From: Escherichia coli
Lineage (GTDB): Bacteria; Pseudomonadota; Gammaproteobacteria; Enterobacterales; Enterobacteriaceae
Assembly (NCBI RefSeq): GCF_029227855.1
Contig: NZ_CP074356.1
Direction: 5' to 3' (one strand)
Length of the DNA stretch: 64,000 nucleotides
Shown here: one piece after another, positions 23,513 through 31,025 of the stretch
Position numbering within the stretch: the stretch's first letter is position 1
Layout: every line of letters starts with the position of its first letter
Program-made: the position numbers and the translations under genes
The notes under the pieces: model-generated
What the model was told of the DNA's origin: nothing
Seen by the model: the letters and a program-made list of their open reading frames with translations, nothing else
Databases searched by the model: none

Positions 23513-24249
23513 TATTGAGGTATCCGCTGCGTCAGAGTCTGAAGAATGTCGGCGTTAAGGGCATCAGGCGTCTCACTCCAGACGGAGTCCGCGAGGCCAA
23601 CATAAATAATGCTGCCGGGCATCGGCTCTACGTGACGCTTGTTCCAGTAAGCCACCGGCGCTTTTTGCGTGCGTCCGTCCGGGTAAACCACCCACGCGTA
23701 GCTGCGATCCGCACCGCTAAGCAGGTTCTGCCCGGAGAGATAGCTCGCCACGTCGCGACCTGGAGTGAATGGCTGATTGCCAGGACGGCTGATAAGCCCG
23801 AACAGCGTGACCGTGGACGGTGGTGGCCCGACCCACAGCGTGTAGTTGCCCTGCAACGGTGGGTTACCGCGTTCGGCAACGCGCACAATATCAGGATCAA
23901 GATTGATTTTTTGCCTGCCCGTCACTTTCAACGCCTGAATTTGCTGGCGTAAGGCGTTAATGGCGGCGGCATCGTCGGCGCTGGAATCTGCAGCCTGTTC
24001 AGCCAGCCGTGTCAGCAACGCCTGCTGCTGACGCAATGCTGCCGCCGTTGCCAGCTCTTCGCTAATCACCGCACCGGGCCACCAGCTGTTTGCCAGCCGC
24101 GGTTGGCCTACCAGATCGATTAAATGCTCTGCACCCGTCAGCGTTTTGGCCTCACTGCTGCCATTGCTGAACACCTTGACGGTTCCTGCCGCGAAGACCG
24201 ATGACGCTCCCACACTCAAAAGCAACGCGACAATAGTTTGTTTAATCAT
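23512..24249 (-). CDS. yjbG: YjbG (yjbEFGH operon)
   Basis: 245 aa ORF with signal peptide; overlaps neighbouring genes by 1-4 nt (operon coupling). Confidence 0.92.
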
Positions 24250-24884
24250 TGTTTTGCCGCCTTGATGAGAGTGGTTTTCACCGGGAAATAATCCGCGCCG
24301 AGATACTGTTCCGACTGGCGAATTTGCCCTTCGCTGTCGATCCAGTAGCGGTTATGCCAGCGCGCCTGGTCGGTGGAGACTTCTTCGTCCAGCACGCGAA
24401 CCGGGGTTTCATCGCTGCCGACCTTGACGGTATCGGTGCCATCCCATTTGAAGACTGAGCGTGCGGTGGCGTAGCGTACCTGCTGGTACTCGGTCCAGCC
24501 CATCGTGCGCGTCCATGTTGCACCATCAACAATTTGTGCGGGTTTAATCAGCGGGTCGGCGGCAAGGTTATTCACTTCAATCAGGTTGTCGCCGCCAAGC
24601 AAAGTCTTCACCAGACGACCATGTTGTGTGACAAGAGTGGCTTGATCCTGAGTGACCCATTTTTGTTGTCCGTCTTCAGCGAAGGCCAGCACCACAAACA
24701 ATTGCGGCCCGCCATTAAGCTGCATGTACTGGCTGGCGTAGGGCATATTTTGAATATCATCGTCCGTCAGCTGTACGCCTGGCGTGCCGAACAGACTGTC
24801 CCACAGTGAATTGCCCAGCTCTTTAGTCGTGGCTGAACAGGCCTGTAATAGCAGGCAGATAAGAATGAGTGCAGGTCGCTTCAC
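24246..24884 (-). CDS. yjbF: Lipoprotein YjbF (yjbEFGH operon); probable GTG start
   Basis: ORF 24246..24914; GTG at 24882-24884 gives MKRPALILICLLLQACS (lipobox) and the expected 212 aa length. Confidence 0.88.
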   Translation of the reverse strand: MKRPALILICLLLQACSATTKELGNSLWDSLFGTPGVQLTDDDIQNMPYASQYMQLNGGPQLFVVLAFAEDGQQKWVTQDQATLVTQHGRLVKTLLGGDNLIEVNNLAADPLIKPAQIVDGATWTRTMGWTEYQQVRYATARSVFKWDGTDTVKVGSDETPVRVLDEEVSTDQARWHNRYWIDSEGQIRQSEQYLGADYFPVKTTLIKAAKQ

Positions 24885-24997
24885 GACTCTTCTCCAGAGG
24901 GGCAGAATAACCACACCGGAGTGTGGTTATGGTAAATCCCTTCATACTTCAAGCCACAGATGCAATGACTCAAATTATTTTGGGGATACATACTTTA

Positions 24998-25240
24998 TTA
25001 CTGGGTACTGGTGGTCGTGGTTGTGGTGGTCCCGGTATTAGAACCATCACCGCCACCGGTTGCCGCGAGCGCGACACCCACCGCCGAGCTTACGGTGCTG
25101 ACGCTGGTCGCGGAGGAACTCCCCGCCGAAACCGACGTTGCTGCCGACCCTGCCGCTTCGCCCACCTGTACAGGTGCAGCCCACGCAGAAGTCGCCGCAA
25201 GCGCAGATATGGCAAAAATGCCATACAGAACTTTTTTCAT
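24998..25240 (-). CDS. yjbE: Small secreted Ser/Thr/Gly-rich protein YjbE
   Basis: 80 aa [43 protein letters not shown]...[10 protein letters not shown]. Confidence 0.9.
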
Positions 25241-25550
25241 AACAATTTCCCTTCATTGAATGAATGGAGATTTACCCAAAAACATTTCGGGCGGGATCGA
25301 GTATACACAACTAAAGCATGCGAATTACGGCGCGGGGAATTAGAGATGGGGTTTTAGGATAATTGGAATGAATATCAAATATAAGCTACAACTTATATAT
25401 AAATAACATTAAAAATCATAATGTTAAAATAAAAGTAAAAGTAATTAATCTGAGTATTTTCCGAAATCAATCACGATTAAAAATCTATTTTAGGATTAAC
25501 CTCACGGTATGATTTCCGTTAAATCACAGACAAGGGGATTTATCTGATAA

Positions 25551-25579
25551 AACAATGCCGACATAACGTCGGCATTGTT
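25551..25579 (-). terminator. Intrinsic terminator downstream of pgi
   Basis: Perfect hairpin aacaatgccgac-ataa-cgtcggcattgtt about 15 nt after the pgi stop. Confidence 0.6.
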
Positions 25580-25594
25580 ATTAAGGTTTTTAAA

Positions 25595-27244
25595 TTAACC
25601 GCGCCACGCTTTATAGCGGTTAATCAGACCATTGGTCGAGCTATCGTGGCTGCTGATTTCTTTATCATCTTTCAGCTCTGGCAGAATACGGTTTGCCAGT
25701 TGTTTACCCAGCTCCACGCCCCACTGGTCGAAGGTGAAGATGTTCAGGATCACGCCCTGAGTAAAGATTTTGTGCTCATACAGCGCAATCAACGCCCCCA
25801 GGCTGAACGGAGTGATTTCGCGCAGCAGGATGGAGTTGGTCGGGCGGTTACCTTCGAACACTTTGAACGGCACCACGTAGTCAAGCGTTGCCGGATCTTT
25901 ACCCTGATCGCGATATTCCTGCTCAACCACTTCGCGGGATTTACCAAACGCCAGCGCTTCGGTCTGGGCGAAGAAGTTAGACAGCAGTTTCTGGTGGTGA
26001 TCAGAGAGCGGGTTATGGGTGATAGCCGGGGCGATGAAATCGCACGGTACCATTTTGGTTCCCTGGTGGATCAGCTGGTAGAACGCGTGCTGACCGTTAG
26101 TGCCTGGTTCACCCCAGATAATCGGGCCAGTCTGGTAATCCACAACGTTACCGTTACGGTCAACATACTTACCGTTGGACTCCATATTGCCCTGCTGGAA
26201 GTACGCCGCGAAACGGTGCATATACTGGTCATACGGCAGAATCGCTTCAGTTTCCGCACCAAAGAAATTGTTGTACCAGATGCCAATCAGCGCCAGCAGG
26301 ACAGGCAGGTTTTTCTCGGCAGGCGTGGTGGAGAAATGCTTGTCCATTGCGTGTGCGCCAGAAAGCAGTTCAACGAAGTTATCAAAGCCGATGGAGAGAA
26401 CAATCGACAGGCCAATCGCTGACCACAAAGAGTAACGGCCGCCGACCCAGTCCCAGAACTCGAACATGTTGGCAGTATCAATACCAAACTCGCCAACGGC
26501 TTTGGCATTGGTGGAAAGCGCCGCAAAGTGTTTTGCAACGTGTTTTTCATCACCTGCCGCTTTCAGGAACCAGTCACGCGCGCTATGGGCGTTGGTCATA
26601 GTTTCCTGAGTGGTGAAGGTTTTAGATGCTACCAGGAACAGCGTGGTTTCCGGGTTTACTTTTTTCAGCACTTCAGCGATGTGAGTCCCATCGACGTTAG
26701 AAACAAAGTGCATGTTCAGGTGATTTTTGTACGGACGCAGTGCTTCGGTCACCATGTACGGGCCGAGGTCAGAACCACCGATCCCGATGTTCACTACGTC
26801 AGTGATTGCTTTGCCGGTATAACCCTTCCACTCACCGGAGATAATCGCTTCCGAGAAGGTTTTCATCTTCTCCAGCACCGCGTTGACTTCCGGCATTACG
26901 TCTTTGCCATCAACCAGAATCGGGGTATTGCTACGGTTACGCAGCGCTACGTGCAGCACGGCGCGGTTTTCAGTGCGGTTGATCTTCTCGCCAGAGAACA
27001 TCGACTTAATCGCGCCCGCCAGATCGCACTCTTTCGCCAGATCCTGTAATTTCGCCAGCGTCTCTTCAGTGATGCGGTTTTTGGAGTAATCCACCAGCAT
27101 CTGATCGTCGAAGGTTGCGGAGAACTTAGAAAAACGATCGCCGTCTTTAGCAAAAAGATCGGCGATCGTAACGTCTTTCATTTCATCGAAGTGTTTCTGT
27201 AGTGCCTGCCAGGCAGCGGTCTGCGTTGGATTGATGTTTTTCAT
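25595..27244 (-). CDS. pgi: Glucose-6-phosphate isomerase
   Basis: Second Met of ORF 25595..27250: [34 protein letters not shown]..., 549 aa. Confidence 0.97.
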
Positions 27245-27469
27245 TAGCAATACTCTTCTGATTTTGAGAATTGTGACTTTGGAAGATTGTAGCGCCAGTC
27301 ACAGAAAAATGTGATGGTTTTAGTGCCGTTAGCGTAATGTTGAGTGTAAACCCTTAGCGCAGTGAAGCATTTATTAGCTGAACTACTGACCGCCAGGAGT
27401 GGATGAAAAATCCGCATGACCCCGTCGTTGACAACCGCCCCGCTCACCCTTTATTTATAAATGTACTAC

Positions 27470-27745
27470 CTGCGCTAGCGCAGGCCAGAAGAGGCGCGTT
27501 GCCCAAGTAACGGTGTTGGAGGAGCCAGTCCTGTGATAACACCTGAGGGGGTGCATCGCCGAGGTGATTGAACGGCTGGCCACGTTCATCATCGGCTACA
27601 GGGGCTGAATCCCCTGGGTTGTCACCAGAAGCGTTCGCAGTCGGGCGTTTCGCAAGTGGTGGAGCACTTCTGGGTGAAAATAGTAGCGAAGTATCGCTCT
27701 GCGCCCACCCGTCTTCCGCTCTTCCCTTGTGCCAAGGCTGAAAAT
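27470..27745 (+). promoter_or_regulatory. lysC leader containing the lysine riboswitch (L box); boundaries approximate
   Basis: Long GC-rich structured 5' UTR directly upstream of lysC with conserved-looking segments (agaggcgc..., ...gggggtgcatcgccgaggtgattgaacggctgg...); the E. coli lysC leader is an established lysine riboswitch. Confidence 0.65.
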
Positions 27746-27768
27746 GGATCCCCTGACACGAGGTAGTT

Positions 27769-29118
27769 ATGTCTGAAATTGTTGTCTCCAAATTTGGCGG
27801 TACCAGCGTAGCTGATTTTGACGCCATGAACCGCAGCGCTGATATTGTGCTTTCTGATGCCAACGTGCGTTTAGTAGTCCTCTCGGCTTCTGCTGGTATC
27901 ACTAATCTGCTGGTCGCTTTAGCGGAAGGGCTGGAACCTGGCGAGCGATTCGAAAAACTCGACGCTATTCGCAACATCCAGTTTGCCATTCTGGAACGTC
28001 TGCGTTACCCGAACGTTATCCGTGAAGAGATTGAACGTCTGCTGGAGAACATTACTGTTCTGGCAGAAGCGGCGGCGCTGGCAACGTCTCCGGCGCTGAC
28101 AGATGAGCTGGTCAGCCACGGCGAGCTGATGTCGACCCTGCTGTTTGTCGAAATCCTGCGCGAACGCGATGTTCAGGCACAGTGGTTTGATGTACGTAAA
28201 GTGATGCGTACCAACGACCGATTTGGTCGTGCAGAGCCAGATGTAGCCGCGCTGGCGGAACTGGCCGCGCTGCAGCTGCTCCCACGCCTCAATGACGGCT
28301 TAGTGATCACCCAGGGATTTATCGGTAGCGAAAATAAAGGTCGTACAACGACGCTTGGCCGTGGAGGCAGCGATTATACGGCAGCCTTGCTGGCGGAGGC
28401 TTTACACGCATCTCGTGTTGATATCTGGACCGACGTCCCGGGCATCTACACCACCGATCCACGCGTAGTTTCCGCAGCAAAACGCATTGATGAAATCGCG
28501 TTTGCCGAAGCGGCAGAGATGGCAACTTTTGGTGCAAAAGTACTGCATCCGGCAACGTTGCTACCCGCAGTACGCAGCGATATCCCGGTCTTTGTCGGCT
28601 CCAGCAAAGACCCACGCGCAGGTGGTACGCTGGTGTGCAATAAAACTGAAAATCCGCCGCTGTTCCGCGCGCTGGCGCTTCGTCGCAATCAGACTCTGCT
28701 CACTTTGCACAGCCTGAATATGCTGCATTCTCGCGGCTTCCTCGCGGAAGTTTTCGGCATCCTCGCGCGGCATAATATTTCGGTAGACTTAATCACCACG
28801 TCAGAAGTGAGCGTGGCATTAACCCTTGATACCACCGGTTCAACCTCCACTGGCGATACGTTGCTGACGCAATCTCTGCTGATGGAGCTTTCCGCACTGT
28901 GCCGGGTGGAAGTAGAAGAAGGTCTGGCGCTGGTCGCGTTGATTGGCAATGACCTGTCAAAAGCCTGCGGCGTTGGCAAAGAGGTATTCGGCGTACTGGA
29001 ACCGTTCAACATTCGCATGATTTGTTACGGCGCATCCAGCCATAACCTGTGCTTCCTGGTGCCCGGCGAAGATGCCGAGCAGGTGGTGCAGAAGCTGCAT
29101 TTTAATTTGTTTGAGTAA
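27769..29118 (+). CDS. lysC: Lysine-sensitive aspartokinase III
   Basis: 449 aa ORF MSEIVVSKFGGTSVADFDAMNRSADIVLSDANVRLVVLSASAGITNLL... Confidence 0.97.
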   Translation: MSEIVVSKFGGTSVADFDAMNRSADIVLSDANVRLVVLSASAGITNLLVALAEGLEPGERFEKLDAIRNIQFAILERLRYPNVIREEIERLLENITVLAEAAALATSPALTDELVSHGELMSTLLFVEILRERDVQAQWFDVRKVMRTNDRFGRAEPDVAALAELAALQLLPRLNDGLVITQGFIGSENKGRTTTLGRGGSDYTAALLAEALHASRVDIWTDVPGIYTTDPRVVSAAKRIDEIAFAEAAEMATFGAKVLHPATLLPAVRSDIPVFVGSSKDPRAGGTLVCNKTENPPLFRALALRRNQTLLTLHSLNMLHSRGFLAEVFGILARHNISVDLITTSEVSVALTLDTTGSTSTGDTLLTQSLLMELSALCRVEVEEGLALVALIGNDLSKACGVGKEVFGVLEPFNIRMICYGASSHNLCFLVPGEDAEQVVQKLHFNLFE

Positions 29119-29262
29119 TATTTCCCTACTGGCGTATAACGCTCACCGATTGTTATACGCCATCCTCACTGAAAACATAGATTAAATAATATCTGAAAAG
29201 CAAAATCACTCCTGTAGAACAGTATTATAATCACCGAAAAATATCATTTAACAGGAGTGTTA

Positions 29263-30189
29263 ATGGCTACTTTAATGGAAAAAGATGCACTTTTAAACGG
29301 AGCCAGTCAGTGCATCGCGTTTTTATCAAATATCATTGATAATTGCTCAGTTTCGTCGCATCAGGATTCAGGCGATGCTCTCAAGCGATTAGTCAGCTAT
29401 CGCGATTATCTTTATTCTACCCCCGCTGAACTTGTTGATTTTACACAAGGTAAGATTCTCCTTCAGCAGGTAAGAACTCAATATCAGCATGAATTCAACA
29501 ATACTACGCATTCAGAAAATAAAGCATCTTTTGATTCTATTTGGCAGCGTCTGACAAATCATGAAGTCACACCGCAACAGCATCCCATTGGTTTTGTTTT
29601 AGGTGGGCAACCCGGAGCAGGTAAATCATCTCTGATTGAATTAGCCAAAAGAGAGACAAAAGATAATATAATGATTATTAACGGTGATGATTTTCGATTT
29701 CTACACCCTGATTTTAATTATATCTACCAAAATTATGGGGATGATTTTGTTACCCATACAGCGAAATTTTCCGGCGAAACGGTCGAACGTGCAATTGAGA
29801 GAGCGATAGTCAGTAAACTCAACATTGTTGTCGAAGGAACATTTCGTAATGCCGCGACGCCGTTACAAACATTAAAAAAACTCAAAGATGCAGGCTACCA
29901 AACAGAAGTCATGATAAAAACAACCTCAGCGGCATTAAGCTGGGAAAGCACCAATGAACGGTATAGTAAGGACAAAGAGGCGGGAAATATTGCCCGAAAA
30001 GTGGATAAAAACCACCATGATATCGTCACCGGTTTGCTGGCAGAAAATGCCCGCAAGGTGTTTGCTTCGAACCTGTCAGATAAGTTTGCGGTGTATTCGC
30101 GTGAGAAGATGATATTTAGTTCACAAGCGGCAACGAATGACGATATTGCAACACTTATACAGAATGAAATCAGCGGGAATACACAATAA
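29263..30189 (+). CDS. Zeta-toxin-like P-loop kinase with an N-terminal extension of about 100 aa; accessory, AT-rich
   Basis: Walker A GGQPGAGKS, Walker-B-like hhhhEG (NIVVEGT), overall zeta/PezT-like layout; ATG at 29263 preceded by aggag; the ORF track extends to a GTG at 29257; markedly lower GC than lysC. Confidence 0.7.
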   Translation: MATLMEKDALLNGASQCIAFLSNIIDNCSVSSHQDSGDALKRLVSYRDYLYSTPAELVDFTQGKILLQQVRTQYQHEFNNTTHSENKASFDSIWQRLTNHEVTPQQHPIGFVLGGQPGAGKSSLIELAKRETKDNIMIINGDDFRFLHPDFNYIYQNYGDDFVTHTAKFSGETVERAIERAIVSKLNIVVEGTFRNAATPLQTLKKLKDAGYQTEVMIKTTSAALSWESTNERYSKDKEAGNIARKVDKNHHDIVTGLLAENARKVFASNLSDKFAVYSREKMIFSSQAATNDDIATLIQNEISGNTQ

Positions 30190-30224
30190 TAATAAGAGCT
30201 GATGGCGTGAAATAACGCCGGGCT

Positions 30225-31025
30225 TTATGCCCGGCGCATTACCGTCTGGTACATTAAGCTATCCAGTTCCTTAACGTCCCCTTCTCTGCTATCCGGTAAC
30301 AGCGGTGGAATTTCCCCACGCGCCTGTTCCGCACGAATAAACGCATGTAACAATGGACGGCGCGGACCATATTCCGCTTCTCCTGCGCGCTGTTTACGTT
30401 CCAGTAATTCGTCTATTTCTGCACGTAACGGCGCATCAAGTTCGCTTCCCGCCAGTAACTCAGCAAAGCGCATTGGCGGCACGCCTTTTCCCGCTTCGAC
30501 CCAGCGCACGGCCAGCAGCGGACGCAGCACGTAAAAGTATTTTTTCAGTCGAACTTCATCGCCCTGCAAATATCCGCGGAAGTTTTTCTGCGCCATCGAA
30601 TAGTAATGCCAGCGCGCACGCAGCGGAGAAAACCACATTGGGACCATTGCCTTAAGCGCCGTTATCGTTTCTTCATCTTGTTGATAGACCACCGGAGAAT
30701 CCAGCCATTCTATCAGCGTCGGGTTCGCGCCTTTCAATAATCCCAGCGCCTTACGCCACTCCCAACCGGAAACATCTAACTCGTCGTCGATGGGCAGCTC
30801 GATAACATCGCGCGGCGGCTCCACCCGCAGATACCATTCCAGCGGGTGAACATACAAAAACCGTACATCGTAGTCGCTGTCGGGCGAGGCAAACCCCCAG
30901 CCGCGGCTCCCGGATTCACAGGCATACAGCACTTTCACGCCGTAGCGCCGTTCTATTTCTTTTAACTGCTGCGATACCCGTTCGCGCATCGCAGCACTGA
31001 CTCCATTTAATGGCATGTTACTCAC
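30225..31025 (-). CDS. Pol-beta-superfamily nucleotidyltransferase-fold protein (minimal NTase plus helical C-terminal region); accessory
   Basis: Motif YACESGSRGWGFASPDSDYDVRF (G[GS]...D.D NTase signature); starts at GTG 31025 overlapping the upstream stop (GTGA) or at ATG 31016. Confidence 0.65.
   Translation of the reverse strand: MSNMPLNGVSAAMRERVSQQLKEIERRYGVKVLYACESGSRGWGFASPDSDYDVRFLYVHPLEWYLRVEPPRDVIELPIDDELDVSGWEWRKALGLLKGANPTLIEWLDSPVVYQQDEETITALKAMVPMWFSPLRARWHYYSMAQKNFRGYLQGDEVRLKKYFYVLRPLLAVRWVEAGKGVPPMRFAELLAGSELDAPLRAEIDELLERKQRAGEAEYGPRRPLLHAFIRAEQARGEIPPLLPDSREGDVKELDSLMYQTVMRRA

What the first reader, a model, noticed from the sequence alone, without database searches (positions are those of the whole stretch)
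27470..27745. Lysine riboswitch in the lysC leader
lysC is preceded by a leader of over 500 nt with extended GC-rich helices; the E. coli lysC 5' UTR is an established lysine-responsive riboswitch that controls translation and mRNA decay. The ORF-track frame 27444..27989 (minus strand) across this region is therefore not a gene.
Basis: established knowledge. Interest (0 to 1): 0.3.

Follow-up and report, generated by a model that had tools for sequence, protein, structure and literature searches.

The report
Known E. coli lysC lysine riboswitch
This is the well-studied lysine-sensing RNA switch in the leader of the E. coli lysC (aspartokinase III) gene; it is real and correctly identified, but already known and routinely annotated.

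Summary
The call is right. Rfam's Lysine riboswitch model (RF00168) matches window 27481..27677 on the + strand at 99.5 bits (threshold 30, E 3e-26, full length). That is 92 nt upstream of lysC (27769..29118). RefSeq annotates a riboswitch at the same coordinates, and the 524-bp pgi-lysC spacer is present at >=95% identity in 5425 of 5426 complete E. coli genomes.

One detail is wrong. The leader is not over 500 nt: 524 bp is the whole spacer shared with the divergent pgi gene. Published numbering places the transcription start at 27463, so the 5' UTR is 306 nt. It is identical to that of a K-12-lineage genome.

Across 47 Enterobacteriaceae leaders, P2-P5 and the L2-L3 kissing loop show compensatory changes. 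P1 and the Shine-Dalgarno-sequestering helix (27725-31 : 27757-63) are essentially invariant. The published mechanism is that lysine stabilises P1, which hides the Shine-Dalgarno sequence and exposes a C-rich tract to RNase E and Rho.

The 181-codon minus-strand ORF (27444..27989) is spurious: no Pfam family, no RefSeq annotation, and a broken frame in 43 of 46 relatives.

Side observation: 31 of 77 related species, including two Escherichia species, lack the aptamer but keep the sequestering hairpin.

The parts
27428..27433 (+). Probable lysC promoter -35 hexamer, TTGACA. An AT-rich -10 region (TTATTTATAAAT, about 27451..27462) follows.
   Evidence: The sequence shows a perfect TTGACA 30-35 nt upstream of the published +1. 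The block TTGACA..TTTATTTATAA is conserved upstream of lysC in relatives. The simple sigma-70 scan did not report it because the -10 is non-consensus. Inferred, not shown.
27463..27768 (+). lysC 5' untranslated leader, 306 nt; +1 = G27463.
   Evidence: The published numbering (PMC10946432: G309 of the AUG, G349, U354-357, A364, Site1 250-253) matches the window bases only with +1 = 27463. The leader is identical to a K-12-lineage genome.
27469..27484 (+). 5'-terminal hairpin CCUGCG-CUAG-CGCAGG just upstream of P1.
   Evidence: Predicted in every fold. Across relatives it is variable and paired in only 61% of cells, and several species have an unrelated sequence here. It is probably not part of the conserved switch.
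27481..27677 (+). Lysine riboswitch aptamer. P1 27485-91:27667-73. P2 27496-27504:27551-59. P2b 27512-18:27537-43. P3 27563-74:27583-93. P4 27594-27604:27611-20. P5 27622-27:27657-62, with an apical extension 27628-37:27642-51. L2-L3 kissing loop 27524-28:27576-80.
   Evidence: RF00168, 99.5 bits, E 3.3e-26. PGAP annotates the same coordinates. Covariation: 30 pairs with changes on both sides, 221 cells against 82.8 +/- 7.0 in shuffles, 0 of 500 shuffles as high. Kissing loop: 90.8% of cells paired, 11 compensatory cells.
27674..27768 (+). Expression platform, from the end of P1 to the start codon.
   Evidence: Alternative folds. ON-state anti-P1 pairings: 27661-65:27718-22, 27671-76:27706-11 and 27652-56:27726-30. 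OFF-state sequester helix: 27725-31:27757-63. No + strand intrinsic terminator was found.
27688..27732 (+). C-rich, G-poor tract (+226..+270). This is the published rut site for Rho and contains RNase E Site1, UCUU, at 27712..27715 (+250..253).
   Evidence: 43-50% C against 17-20% G in 30-nt windows. It corresponds to the 'position ~240' rut site and to the Site1 250-253 deletion in PMC10946432. UCUU confirmed at 27712-27715.
27725..27763 (+). Shine-Dalgarno-sequestering hairpin: CCUUGUG (27725-31) pairs with CACGAGG (27757-63). The Shine-Dalgarno GAGG is 27760-63, 5 nt before the AUG at 27769.
   Evidence: Local folds. 97.9% of cells paired across 47 species, with 5 of 7 pairs never varying. 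It is the only consensus structure kept in the aptamer-less leaders of relatives.
27769..29118 (+). lysC, lysine-sensitive aspartokinase III (449 aa); the regulated gene.
   Evidence: ORF list. RefSeq names it 'lysine-sensitive aspartokinase 3' at the homologous locus. It differs from the K-12-lineage protein at 3 residues.
27444..27989 (-). Spurious 181-codon ORF antisense to the riboswitch and to the first 221 nt of lysC; not a gene.
   Evidence: No Pfam family. Not annotated by PGAP in three genomes inspected. The frame is broken in 43 of 46 related leaders, including E. albertii.

Best explanation
Window 27463..27768 is the 5' UTR of the E. coli lysC mRNA and carries the canonical lysine riboswitch.

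The aptamer (27481..27677) is a five-helix junction with an L2-L3 kissing loop. When lysine is bound it locks P1 (27485-91 : 27667-73). With P1 closed, the downstream platform cannot form the anti-P1/antisequester pairing. CCUUGUG (27725-31) is then free to pair with CACGAGG (27757-63), which buries the Shine-Dalgarno GAGG and blocks translation initiation. The C-rich tract around +240 (27688..27732, including UCUU at 27712-15) becomes single-stranded. There it serves as an RNase E cleavage site and as a Rho loading (rut) site, giving mRNA decay and premature termination at the start codon (G309 = 27771) and inside lysC.

Without lysine, the 3' strands of P5 and P1 (27652-76) pair with the C-rich tract (27706-30). 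This frees the Shine-Dalgarno sequence and hides the RNase E/Rho site, so aspartokinase III is made.

Shown here: the aptamer match, the helices and their covariation, the two mutually exclusive pairing sets, the C-rich tract, and sequence identity to the studied K-12 leader. Taken from the literature: lysine binding, RNase E cleavage and Rho termination.
For: - RF00168 full-length hit, 99.5 bits, + strand only.
- Same coordinates annotated as a riboswitch by PGAP.
- The spacer is present in 5425 of 5426 complete E. coli genomes, at >=99% identity in 5420.
- The UTR is identical to a K-12-lineage genome.
- Published landmarks G309, G349, U354-357, A364 and Site1 UCUU all map correctly with +1 = 27463.
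- Compensatory changes in P2, P2b, P3, P4 and the P5 extension: 30 pairs, 221 cells against 82.8 +/- 7.0, 0 of 500 shuffles as high; slid controls 39-46% paired against 89.4%.
- Kissing-loop covariation.
- The sequester helix and the anti-P1 helices are predicted by folding and are 98-100% pairable in 47 species.
- C-rich, G-poor tract at +226..270.
- No + strand intrinsic terminator in the leader.
- Mechanism as described in PMC10946432.
Against: - Nothing contradicts the assignment.
- P1, the sequester helix and the anti-P1 helices are so conserved that they give no two-sided covariation. Their pairing rests on thermodynamic prediction, conservation and published work.
- Two alternative registers of the anti-P1 pairing are predicted. 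I could not consult the figure in Caron et al. 2012 to choose between them.
- The full-length minimum-free-energy fold does not reproduce the aptamer. This is usual for ligand-stabilised tertiary folds.
- The energy z-score is unremarkable and no better than on the antisense strand.
Confidence: 0.97

Rival explanations
1. The region encodes a protein on the minus strand (ORF 27444..27989, 181 aa), and the RNA-model hit is incidental.
For: An uninterrupted 181-codon frame exists. An open frame of similar length also occurs in a near-identical Escherichia strain and in two Kluyvera species.
Against: No Pfam family. Never annotated by PGAP at this locus. The frame is broken by stops or indels in 43 of 46 related leaders, including E. 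albertii and a third Kluyvera. It overlaps lysC codons 1-74 on the opposite strand. The substitution pattern in the region is that of RNA helices, i.e. compensatory pairs, not of codons.
Confidence: 0.01
2. The aptamer is real, but the switch works as in Bacillus subtilis, by lysine-dependent formation of an intrinsic transcription terminator.
For: Most characterised Firmicute lysine riboswitches work this way (established knowledge, restated in PMC10946432).
Against: No + strand stem-loop followed by a U-run occurs anywhere between the aptamer and lysC. The only terminator-like site inside the leader is on the minus strand and is within chance expectation. The platform instead contains a Shine-Dalgarno-sequestering helix. 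Published in vitro transcription gives full-length product regardless of lysine unless Rho and NusG are added.
Confidence: 0.01
3. The aptamer is a decaying relic, and lysine control of lysC in this strain is exerted only at the promoter.
For: lysC also has promoter-level lysine control (PMC10946432). 31 of 77 related species have lost the aptamer altogether. One E. coli isolate carries an IS1 between the aptamer and lysC. The switch is therefore dispensable in some lineages.
Against: The window's aptamer scores 99.5 bits over the full model. It is identical to the experimentally active K-12 sequence. It is conserved at >=99% in 5420 E. coli genomes. It keeps every core nucleotide that is invariant across the 47 aptamer-bearing species.
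Confidence: 0.01

Closest known systems
Escherichia coli K-12 lysC lysine riboswitch (Caron et al. 2012 PNAS; Bastet et al. 2017; Ghosh et al. 2024, PMC10946432)
   Same: It is the same element. The 306-nt UTR is identical to a K-12-lineage genome, every published landmark position matches, and PGAP annotates the same bases.
   Different: Within the transcript, nothing. The only difference in the 524-bp spacer is G instead of A at -38 (27424), upstream of the transcript. LysC differs at 3 residues. The strain also carries an accessory island downstream of lysC that K-12 lacks.
Bacillus subtilis lysC L box / lysine riboswitch (Sudarsan et al. 2003; Grundy et al. 2003), the founding members of RF00168
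   Same: Same aptamer family (five-helix junction, L2-L3 kissing loop, conserved junction nucleotides), same ligand, and same regulated enzyme class (aspartokinase). Basis: Rfam alignment and established knowledge.
   Different: The Bacillus platform is an intrinsic terminator/antiterminator. This one has no terminator. It uses Shine-Dalgarno sequestration plus exposure of an RNase E/Rho site. P5 here carries an extra 10-bp apical extension.
E. coli thiC, thiM and ribB riboswitches that couple translation control to Rho-dependent termination
   Same: A translational platform with a ligand-controlled C-rich rut site, and termination at a pause near the start codon (PMC10946432).
   Different: Different aptamer classes and ligands (TPP, FMN). 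In addition, lysC exposes an RNase E site directly ('nucleolytic repression'), which thiM and btuB do not.

Membership tests
Lysine riboswitch (Rfam RF00168; L box / LYS element) | Scores above the curated gathering threshold of the family covariance model over the full model | tested here: met
   99.5 bits against a gathering score of 30, E 3.3e-26, model positions 1-182 of 182, + strand only.
Lysine riboswitch (Rfam RF00168; L box / LYS element) | Five helices (P1-P5) around one junction, supported by compensatory base changes | tested here: met
   On a MAFFT alignment of 47 Enterobacteriaceae leaders, 30 of 79 pairs have two-sided changes. 221 cells change on both sides against 82.8 +/- 7.0 in shuffles (0 of 500 as high). 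89.4% of cells are paired against 39-46% when partners are slid. P1 and the core of P5 are invariant, so they are uninformative.
Lysine riboswitch (Rfam RF00168; L box / LYS element) | L2-L3 loop-loop (kissing) interaction | tested here: met
   GCCAG (27524-28) pairs with CUGGC (27576-80). 90.8% of cells are paired against at most 49.7% in slid controls. G-C changes to A-U in 10 sequences and A-U to G-C in one.
Lysine riboswitch (Rfam RF00168; L box / LYS element) | Conserved junction/core nucleotides (J1/2 AGAGG, GCCGAG, GUCACC, GGUGGAGC) | tested here: met
   These positions match the family consensus in the cmscan alignment. They are invariant in all 47 aptamer-bearing leaders, e.g. C23-G32, G96-C98, G159-C164 and G196-G200 in UTR numbering.
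Lysine riboswitch (Rfam RF00168; L box / LYS element) | Lies in the 5' UTR, sense strand, of a lysine biosynthesis or transport gene | tested here: met
   The aptamer ends 92 nt before the lysC ATG on the same strand. lysC is annotated as lysine-sensitive aspartokinase 3. The published transcription start at 27463 lies upstream of the aptamer.
Lysine riboswitch (Rfam RF00168; L box / LYS element) | The RNA binds L-lysine directly and selectively | not testable with these tools
   Not computable here. Lysine-dependent effects are reported for the identical K-12 sequence, including in purified in vitro transcription with Rho and NusG (PMC10946432).
Lysine riboswitch (Rfam RF00168; L box / LYS element) | K-turn and loop-E motifs in P2 | not tested
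   The internal loops of P2 contain the non-canonical positions flagged by cmscan. I did not analyse the motif geometry.
E. coli-type translational / RNase E / Rho expression platform | A helix that sequesters the Shine-Dalgarno sequence when P1 is formed | tested here: met
   CCUUGUG (27725-31) pairs with CACGAGG (27757-63), covering GAGG. 97.9% of cells are paired in 47 species. The helix is invariant, so there is no covariation. With the aptamer enforced, Shine-Dalgarno unpaired probabilities are 0.06-0.20 for five of the seven bases.
E. coli-type translational / RNase E / Rho expression platform | An alternative anti-P1/antisequester pairing, mutually exclusive with P1 and with the sequester helix | tested here: met
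   The unconstrained minimum-free-energy fold pairs 27661-65:27718-22, 27671-76:27706-11 and 27652-56:27726-30. The first two helices are 100% and 98.9% pairable in 47 species. They show only one-sided (G-C/G-U) changes and no compensatory pairs, so covariation is uninformative. A second register is also predicted.
E. coli-type translational / RNase E / Rho expression platform | A C-rich, G-poor tract (rut) containing the RNase E site UCUU at +250-253 | tested here: met
   43-50% C against 17-20% G at +226..270. UCUU lies at 27712-15. Function as reported in PMC10946432.
Protein-coding gene (minus-strand ORF 27444..27989) | Reading frame conserved in related genomes; homology to a protein family; annotated in curated genomes | tested here: not met
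   The frame is broken in 43 of 46 relatives. No Pfam family at E <= 0.01. Absent from PGAP annotation of three genomes.

The most novel reading that the evidence does not exclude
The element in the window is textbook. The only novel reading concerns its evolution.

Riboswitch control of lysC appears to be dispensable in the family. A single compact deletion, about 230 nt running from just after the transcription start to the C-rich tract, removed the aptamer and the anti-P1 strand in many Enterobacteriaceae. These include Citrobacter, Enterobacter, Lelliottia, Trabulsiella, Escherichia whittamii and Escherichia sp. E1V33. The Shine-Dalgarno-sequestering hairpin remains almost unchanged.

This would mean the hairpin has an aptamer-independent role, such as constitutive translational throttling or a trans-acting opener. 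It would also mean that the three-layer E. coli mechanism is not general, contrary to the statement that the system is 'well conserved within Enterobacteriales' (PMC5584792).
Probability: 0.5. Interest if true: 0.35.

Novelty: already known. Interest (0 to 1): 0.08.

Why it matters
For this window the value is in annotation. The result confirms a known cis-regulatory RNA and fixes its true boundaries: aptamer 27481..27677 and UTR 27463..27768. It corrects the leader length and removes a spurious 181-codon ORF from consideration.

The riboswitch itself is a reference system for multi-layer control (translation, RNase E decay, Rho termination) of the first committed step shared by lysine, threonine and methionine synthesis. 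It is also a target for lysine-analogue antibacterials and for lysine-overproduction engineering.

The side observation, if it has not been described before, gives a natural 'aptamer knock-out' series. Close relatives have lost the aptamer but kept the sequestering hairpin. They could be used to ask what the expression platform does on its own and how promoter-level lysine control compensates.

Tried and rejected
- **Folding energy as a test of structure.** z = -2.09 on the sense strand and -2.44 on the antisense strand. This is uninformative, and the minimum-free-energy fold does not reproduce the aptamer.
- **Sigma-70 consensus scan for the lysC promoter.** It was not detected because the -10 is non-consensus. 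The scan found only a pgi-side candidate on the minus strand and one inside lysC. The promoter was placed instead from the published +1 and the perfect TTGACA.
- **Reading primary sources.** Caron et al. 2012 and Rodionov et al. 2003 are not held. I relied on Ghosh et al. 2024 (PMC10946432), which restates their findings and numbering. I could not confirm from text my recollection that G31 is the residue mutated to abolish binding. I report only that G31 is invariant.
- **First alignment of all 77 leaders (A1).** It was scrambled because about 40% of the species lack the aptamer. I re-aligned only the aptamer-bearing leaders (A2).
- **Covariation test of the ON-state helices.** There are no two-sided changes, so the model cannot be proved or refuted this way.
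- **Recombination as an explanation for the aptamer-less Escherichia species.** Segment identities give no clear signal. lysC is about 84% identical to both the E. coli and the Citrobacter sequences, so the question is left open.
- **Terminator-like site at 27698..27685 (minus strand).** It is the reverse complement of the small platform hairpin and is within chance expectation (2 found against 0.9 expected).

Full report
**1. The observation**

I scanned window 24000..31000, both strands, against all Rfam families. There is one riboswitch match: RF00168 (Lysine) at 27481..27677 on the + strand. It scores 99.5 bits against a gathering score of 30, with E = 3.3e-26, and covers model positions 1-182 of 182.

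The ORF list places lysC (449 aa, MSEIVVSKFGGTS...) at 27769..29118 on the + strand. pgi lies on the minus strand and ends its coding region at 27244. The aptamer therefore sits in the lysC leader, on the lysC strand, 92 nt from the ATG.

Plain folding energy is not what makes the element significant. The z-score is -2.09 on the sense strand and -2.44 on the antisense strand.

**2. Organism and existing annotation**

The 524-bp pgi-lysC spacer (27245..27768) is found in 5425 of 5426 complete E. coli genomes. Identity is >=99% in 5420 of them.

In RefSeq records, PGAP annotates a 'riboswitch' (Lysine) at locus 4237..4433. This converts exactly to window 27481..27677. It is flanked by pgi and by 'lysine-sensitive aspartokinase 3'.

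Compared with a K-12-lineage (O16:H48) genome, the spacer differs at one base, 27424, which is position -38. The transcribed leader is therefore identical to the sequence used in the published experiments.

**3. Leader length**

Ghosh et al. 2024 (PMC10946432) number positions from the transcription start. They give G309 as the G of the AUG, Rho stops at G349, U354-357 and A364, and RNase E Site1 as positions 250-253.

With +1 = 27463, every one of these falls on the stated base, and Site1 reads UCUU at 27712..27715. The 5' UTR is therefore 306 nt (27463..27768).

A perfect TTGACA lies at 27428..27433, followed by an AT-rich -10 region. The simple promoter scan missed it. The remaining ~180 bp of the spacer belong to the divergent pgi promoter side.

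**4. Anatomy**

Projecting the Rfam consensus onto the sequence, and folding with and without constraints, gives these elements:

| Element | Coordinates |
|---|---|
| 5' hairpin | 27469-74 : 27479-84 |
| P1 | 27485-91 : 27667-73 (CCAGAAG / CUUCUGG) |
| P2 | 27496-27504 : 27551-59 |
| P2b | 27512-18 : 27537-43 |
| P3 | 27563-74 : 27583-93 |
| P4 | 27594-27604 : 27611-20 |
| P5 | 27622-27 : 27657-62 |
| P5 apical extension (10 bp) | 27628-37 : 27642-51 |
| L2-L3 kissing loop | GCCAG 27524-28 : CUGGC 27576-80 |
| Small platform hairpin | 27681-89 : 27694-27701 |
| C-rich, G-poor tract | +226..270, 43-50% C against 17-20% G |
| Sequester helix | CCUUGUG 27725-31 : CACGAGG 27757-63 |

The sequester helix covers the Shine-Dalgarno GAGG (27760-63), 5 nt before the AUG.

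The unconstrained minimum-free-energy fold instead pairs the 3' strands of P5 and P1 with the C-rich tract. The pairings are 27652-56:27726-30, 27661-65:27718-22 and 27671-76:27706-11. These are mutually exclusive with both P1 and the sequester helix. This is the ON (anti-P1/antisequester) state described in the literature.

A second register of this pairing is also predicted. I could not consult the original figure to choose between the two.

No + strand intrinsic terminator exists in the leader.

**5. Comparative test**

I fetched 80 lysC loci from Enterobacteriaceae species representatives. I aligned the 46 that carry the aptamer with the window (A2).

- For the OFF-state structure, 89.4% of cells form standard pairs, against 39-46% when partners are slid.
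- 30 of 79 pairs show changes on both sides.
- 221 cells are compensatory, against 82.8 +/- 7.0 in shuffles; no shuffle in 500 is as high.
- The compensatory changes are concentrated in P2, P2b, P3, P4 and the P5 extension.
- P1 (7 of 7 pairs) and the sequester helix (5 of 7 pairs) never vary. This is conservation, not covariation.
- The kissing loop is paired in 90.8% of cells, with G-C changing to A-U in ten sequences.
- The two core ON-state helices are 99-100% pairable but show only one-sided G-C/G-U changes.

The aptamer architecture is therefore independently supported here. The switching helices are supported by prediction, strict conservation and published experiments.

**6. Mechanism**

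The following is from PMC10946432, which summarises Caron et al. 2012 and adds new data.

- Without lysine, the antisequestering stem allows translation and hides the RNase E sites and the rut site.
- With lysine, P1 forms, the Shine-Dalgarno sequence is sequestered, and RNase E cleaves the exposed platform.
- Rho, with NusG, terminates at G309. Termination rises from 31% to 56% when lysine is added. Rho also terminates further inside the ORF.
- Deleting Site1 (250-253) raises RNA polymerase occupancy early in the ORF.

All sequence features these steps require are present in the window, and its leader is identical to the studied sequence. Lysine binding itself cannot be tested with these tools.

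**7. The minus-strand ORF**

ORF 27444..27989 (181 aa) is antisense to the aptamer and to the first 221 nt of lysC.

- It has no Pfam family.
- PGAP does not annotate it in any genome I inspected.
- An open frame of comparable length survives only in a near-identical Escherichia strain and two Kluyvera species.
- In the other 43 of 46 relatives, including E. albertii, it is cut by stops or by non-triplet indels.

It is not a gene.

**8. Comparison with what is known**

[quoted passage not shown] It shares the aptamer family with the Bacillus L box. It differs in the platform, which uses Shine-Dalgarno sequestration with RNase E and Rho rather than an intrinsic terminator. It resembles the thiC, thiM and ribB switches in coupling translation to Rho.

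Novelty: already known. Interest: low.

**9. Things seen on the way**

(a) 31 of the 77 evaluable species lack the aptamer. All 31 are negative at Rfam's gathering threshold across lysC +/- 1.5 kb, while all 9 positive controls score 74-100 bits.

In these species pgi lies only about 290-500 nt from lysC. In most of them the promoter block TTGACA..TTTATTTATAA is followed directly by a leader of roughly 80 nt. That leader is homologous to the 3' part of the E. coli platform. Its only consensus structure is the Shine-Dalgarno-sequestering hairpin.

The group includes Citrobacter, Enterobacter, Lelliottia, Trabulsiella, Escherichia whittamii and Escherichia sp. E1V33. Homology between E. coli and Escherichia sp. 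E1V33 runs uninterrupted up to the transcription start and resumes near +288, which is consistent with a compact deletion.

[quoted passage not shown] I found no mention of this loss in the literature I could search. It may still be visible in Rfam or RegPrecise distributions.

(b) E. coli EECO1006 (a blood isolate) carries IS1 inserted at the 3' strand of P1, with a 9-bp target duplication. This separates the aptamer from lysC.

(c) ERIC-like repeats are inserted in the apical P5 loop of Buttiauxella and Cedecea aptamers and in some Citrobacter leaders.

(d) Directly downstream of lysC the window carries an island encoding a zeta-toxin family protein, a nucleotidyltransferase and a slipin. 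The island is present in 1633 of 5426 E. coli genomes and absent from the K-12-lineage and O157 genomes inspected.

(e) Rfam STnc430 matches 25437..25586 on the + strand.

Noticed in passing
Related loci L005, L006, L008, L010, L011, L013-L019, L021, L022, L032, L045, L046, L049, L052, L053, L060, L064, L069, L071-L073, L076, L077, L079, L081, L082 (region upstream of lysC, about locus 1200..1500): 31 of 77 Enterobacteriaceae species representatives have no lysine aptamer upstream of the syntenic pgi-lysC lysC. They include Citrobacter, Enterobacter, Lelliottia, Trabulsiella, Escherichia whittamii and Escherichia sp. E1V33. Most have a leader of roughly 80 nt that starts right after the conserved promoter and keeps only the Shine-Dalgarno-sequestering hairpin (CCUUGUG...CACGAGG). 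This looks like one ~230-nt deletion of the aptamer plus the anti-P1 strand. I found no mention of it in the searchable literature.
   Followed up: partly
L083 (E. coli EECO1006, NZ_CP090319.1) 3931..4700; equivalent to window ~27667..27675: An IS1 element is inserted exactly at the 3' strand of P1, with target duplication CTTCTGGGT. It separates an intact aptamer from the expression platform and lysC in a human blood isolate. This is a natural uncoupling of the riboswitch.
   Followed up: partly
window 29257..30189 (+) and on to about 31600: Immediately downstream of lysC, where the K-12-lineage and O157 genomes inspected have yjbD, the window has an accessory island. It encodes a Zeta_toxin family protein (PF06414, E 1.3e-40), a nucleotidyltransferase-domain protein and a slipin-family protein. 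The island is present in 1633 of 5426 complete E. coli genomes and always on the chromosome.
   Followed up: partly
window 25437..25586 (+): Rfam match to the enterobacterial sRNA STnc430 (RF02053, 69.1 bits against a gathering score of 47). It lies between yjbE and the 3' end of pgi, on the strand opposite to both genes, and ends in a GC-rich hairpin (GCCGACAUAACGUCGGC).
   Followed up: no
L050 and L070 (alignment A2 columns about 203..330); L011, L017, L018, L069 leaders: ERIC-like repeats (...GAATCCC..GAGCTTAC..AAGTAAGTGA...GGTGAG...) are inserted in the apical loop of the aptamer's P5 extension in Buttiauxella noackiae and Cedecea sulfonylureivorans. They also occur in the short aptamer-less leaders of several Citrobacter species. 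L050 was scanned and still scores 74 bits against RF00168; L070 was not scanned.
   Followed up: no
L024, L026-L028, L031, L054-L057, L059, L065, L068 (alignment A2 columns about 425..570): Klebsiella and Raoultella leaders carry an extra structured insert of ~90-100 nt between the two arms of the Shine-Dalgarno-sequestering helix. They also have a longer P5 extension, which makes their UTRs more than 400 nt long. The function of these inserts is unknown.
   Followed up: no
L012 (CACSKA010000007.1): This record is titled 'Chryseobacterium sp. 18061', but it carries an enterobacterial pgi-lysC locus with an 88%-identical LysC and a typical enterobacterial lysine riboswitch. It is probably a mislabelled or contaminated assembly.
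   Followed up: no
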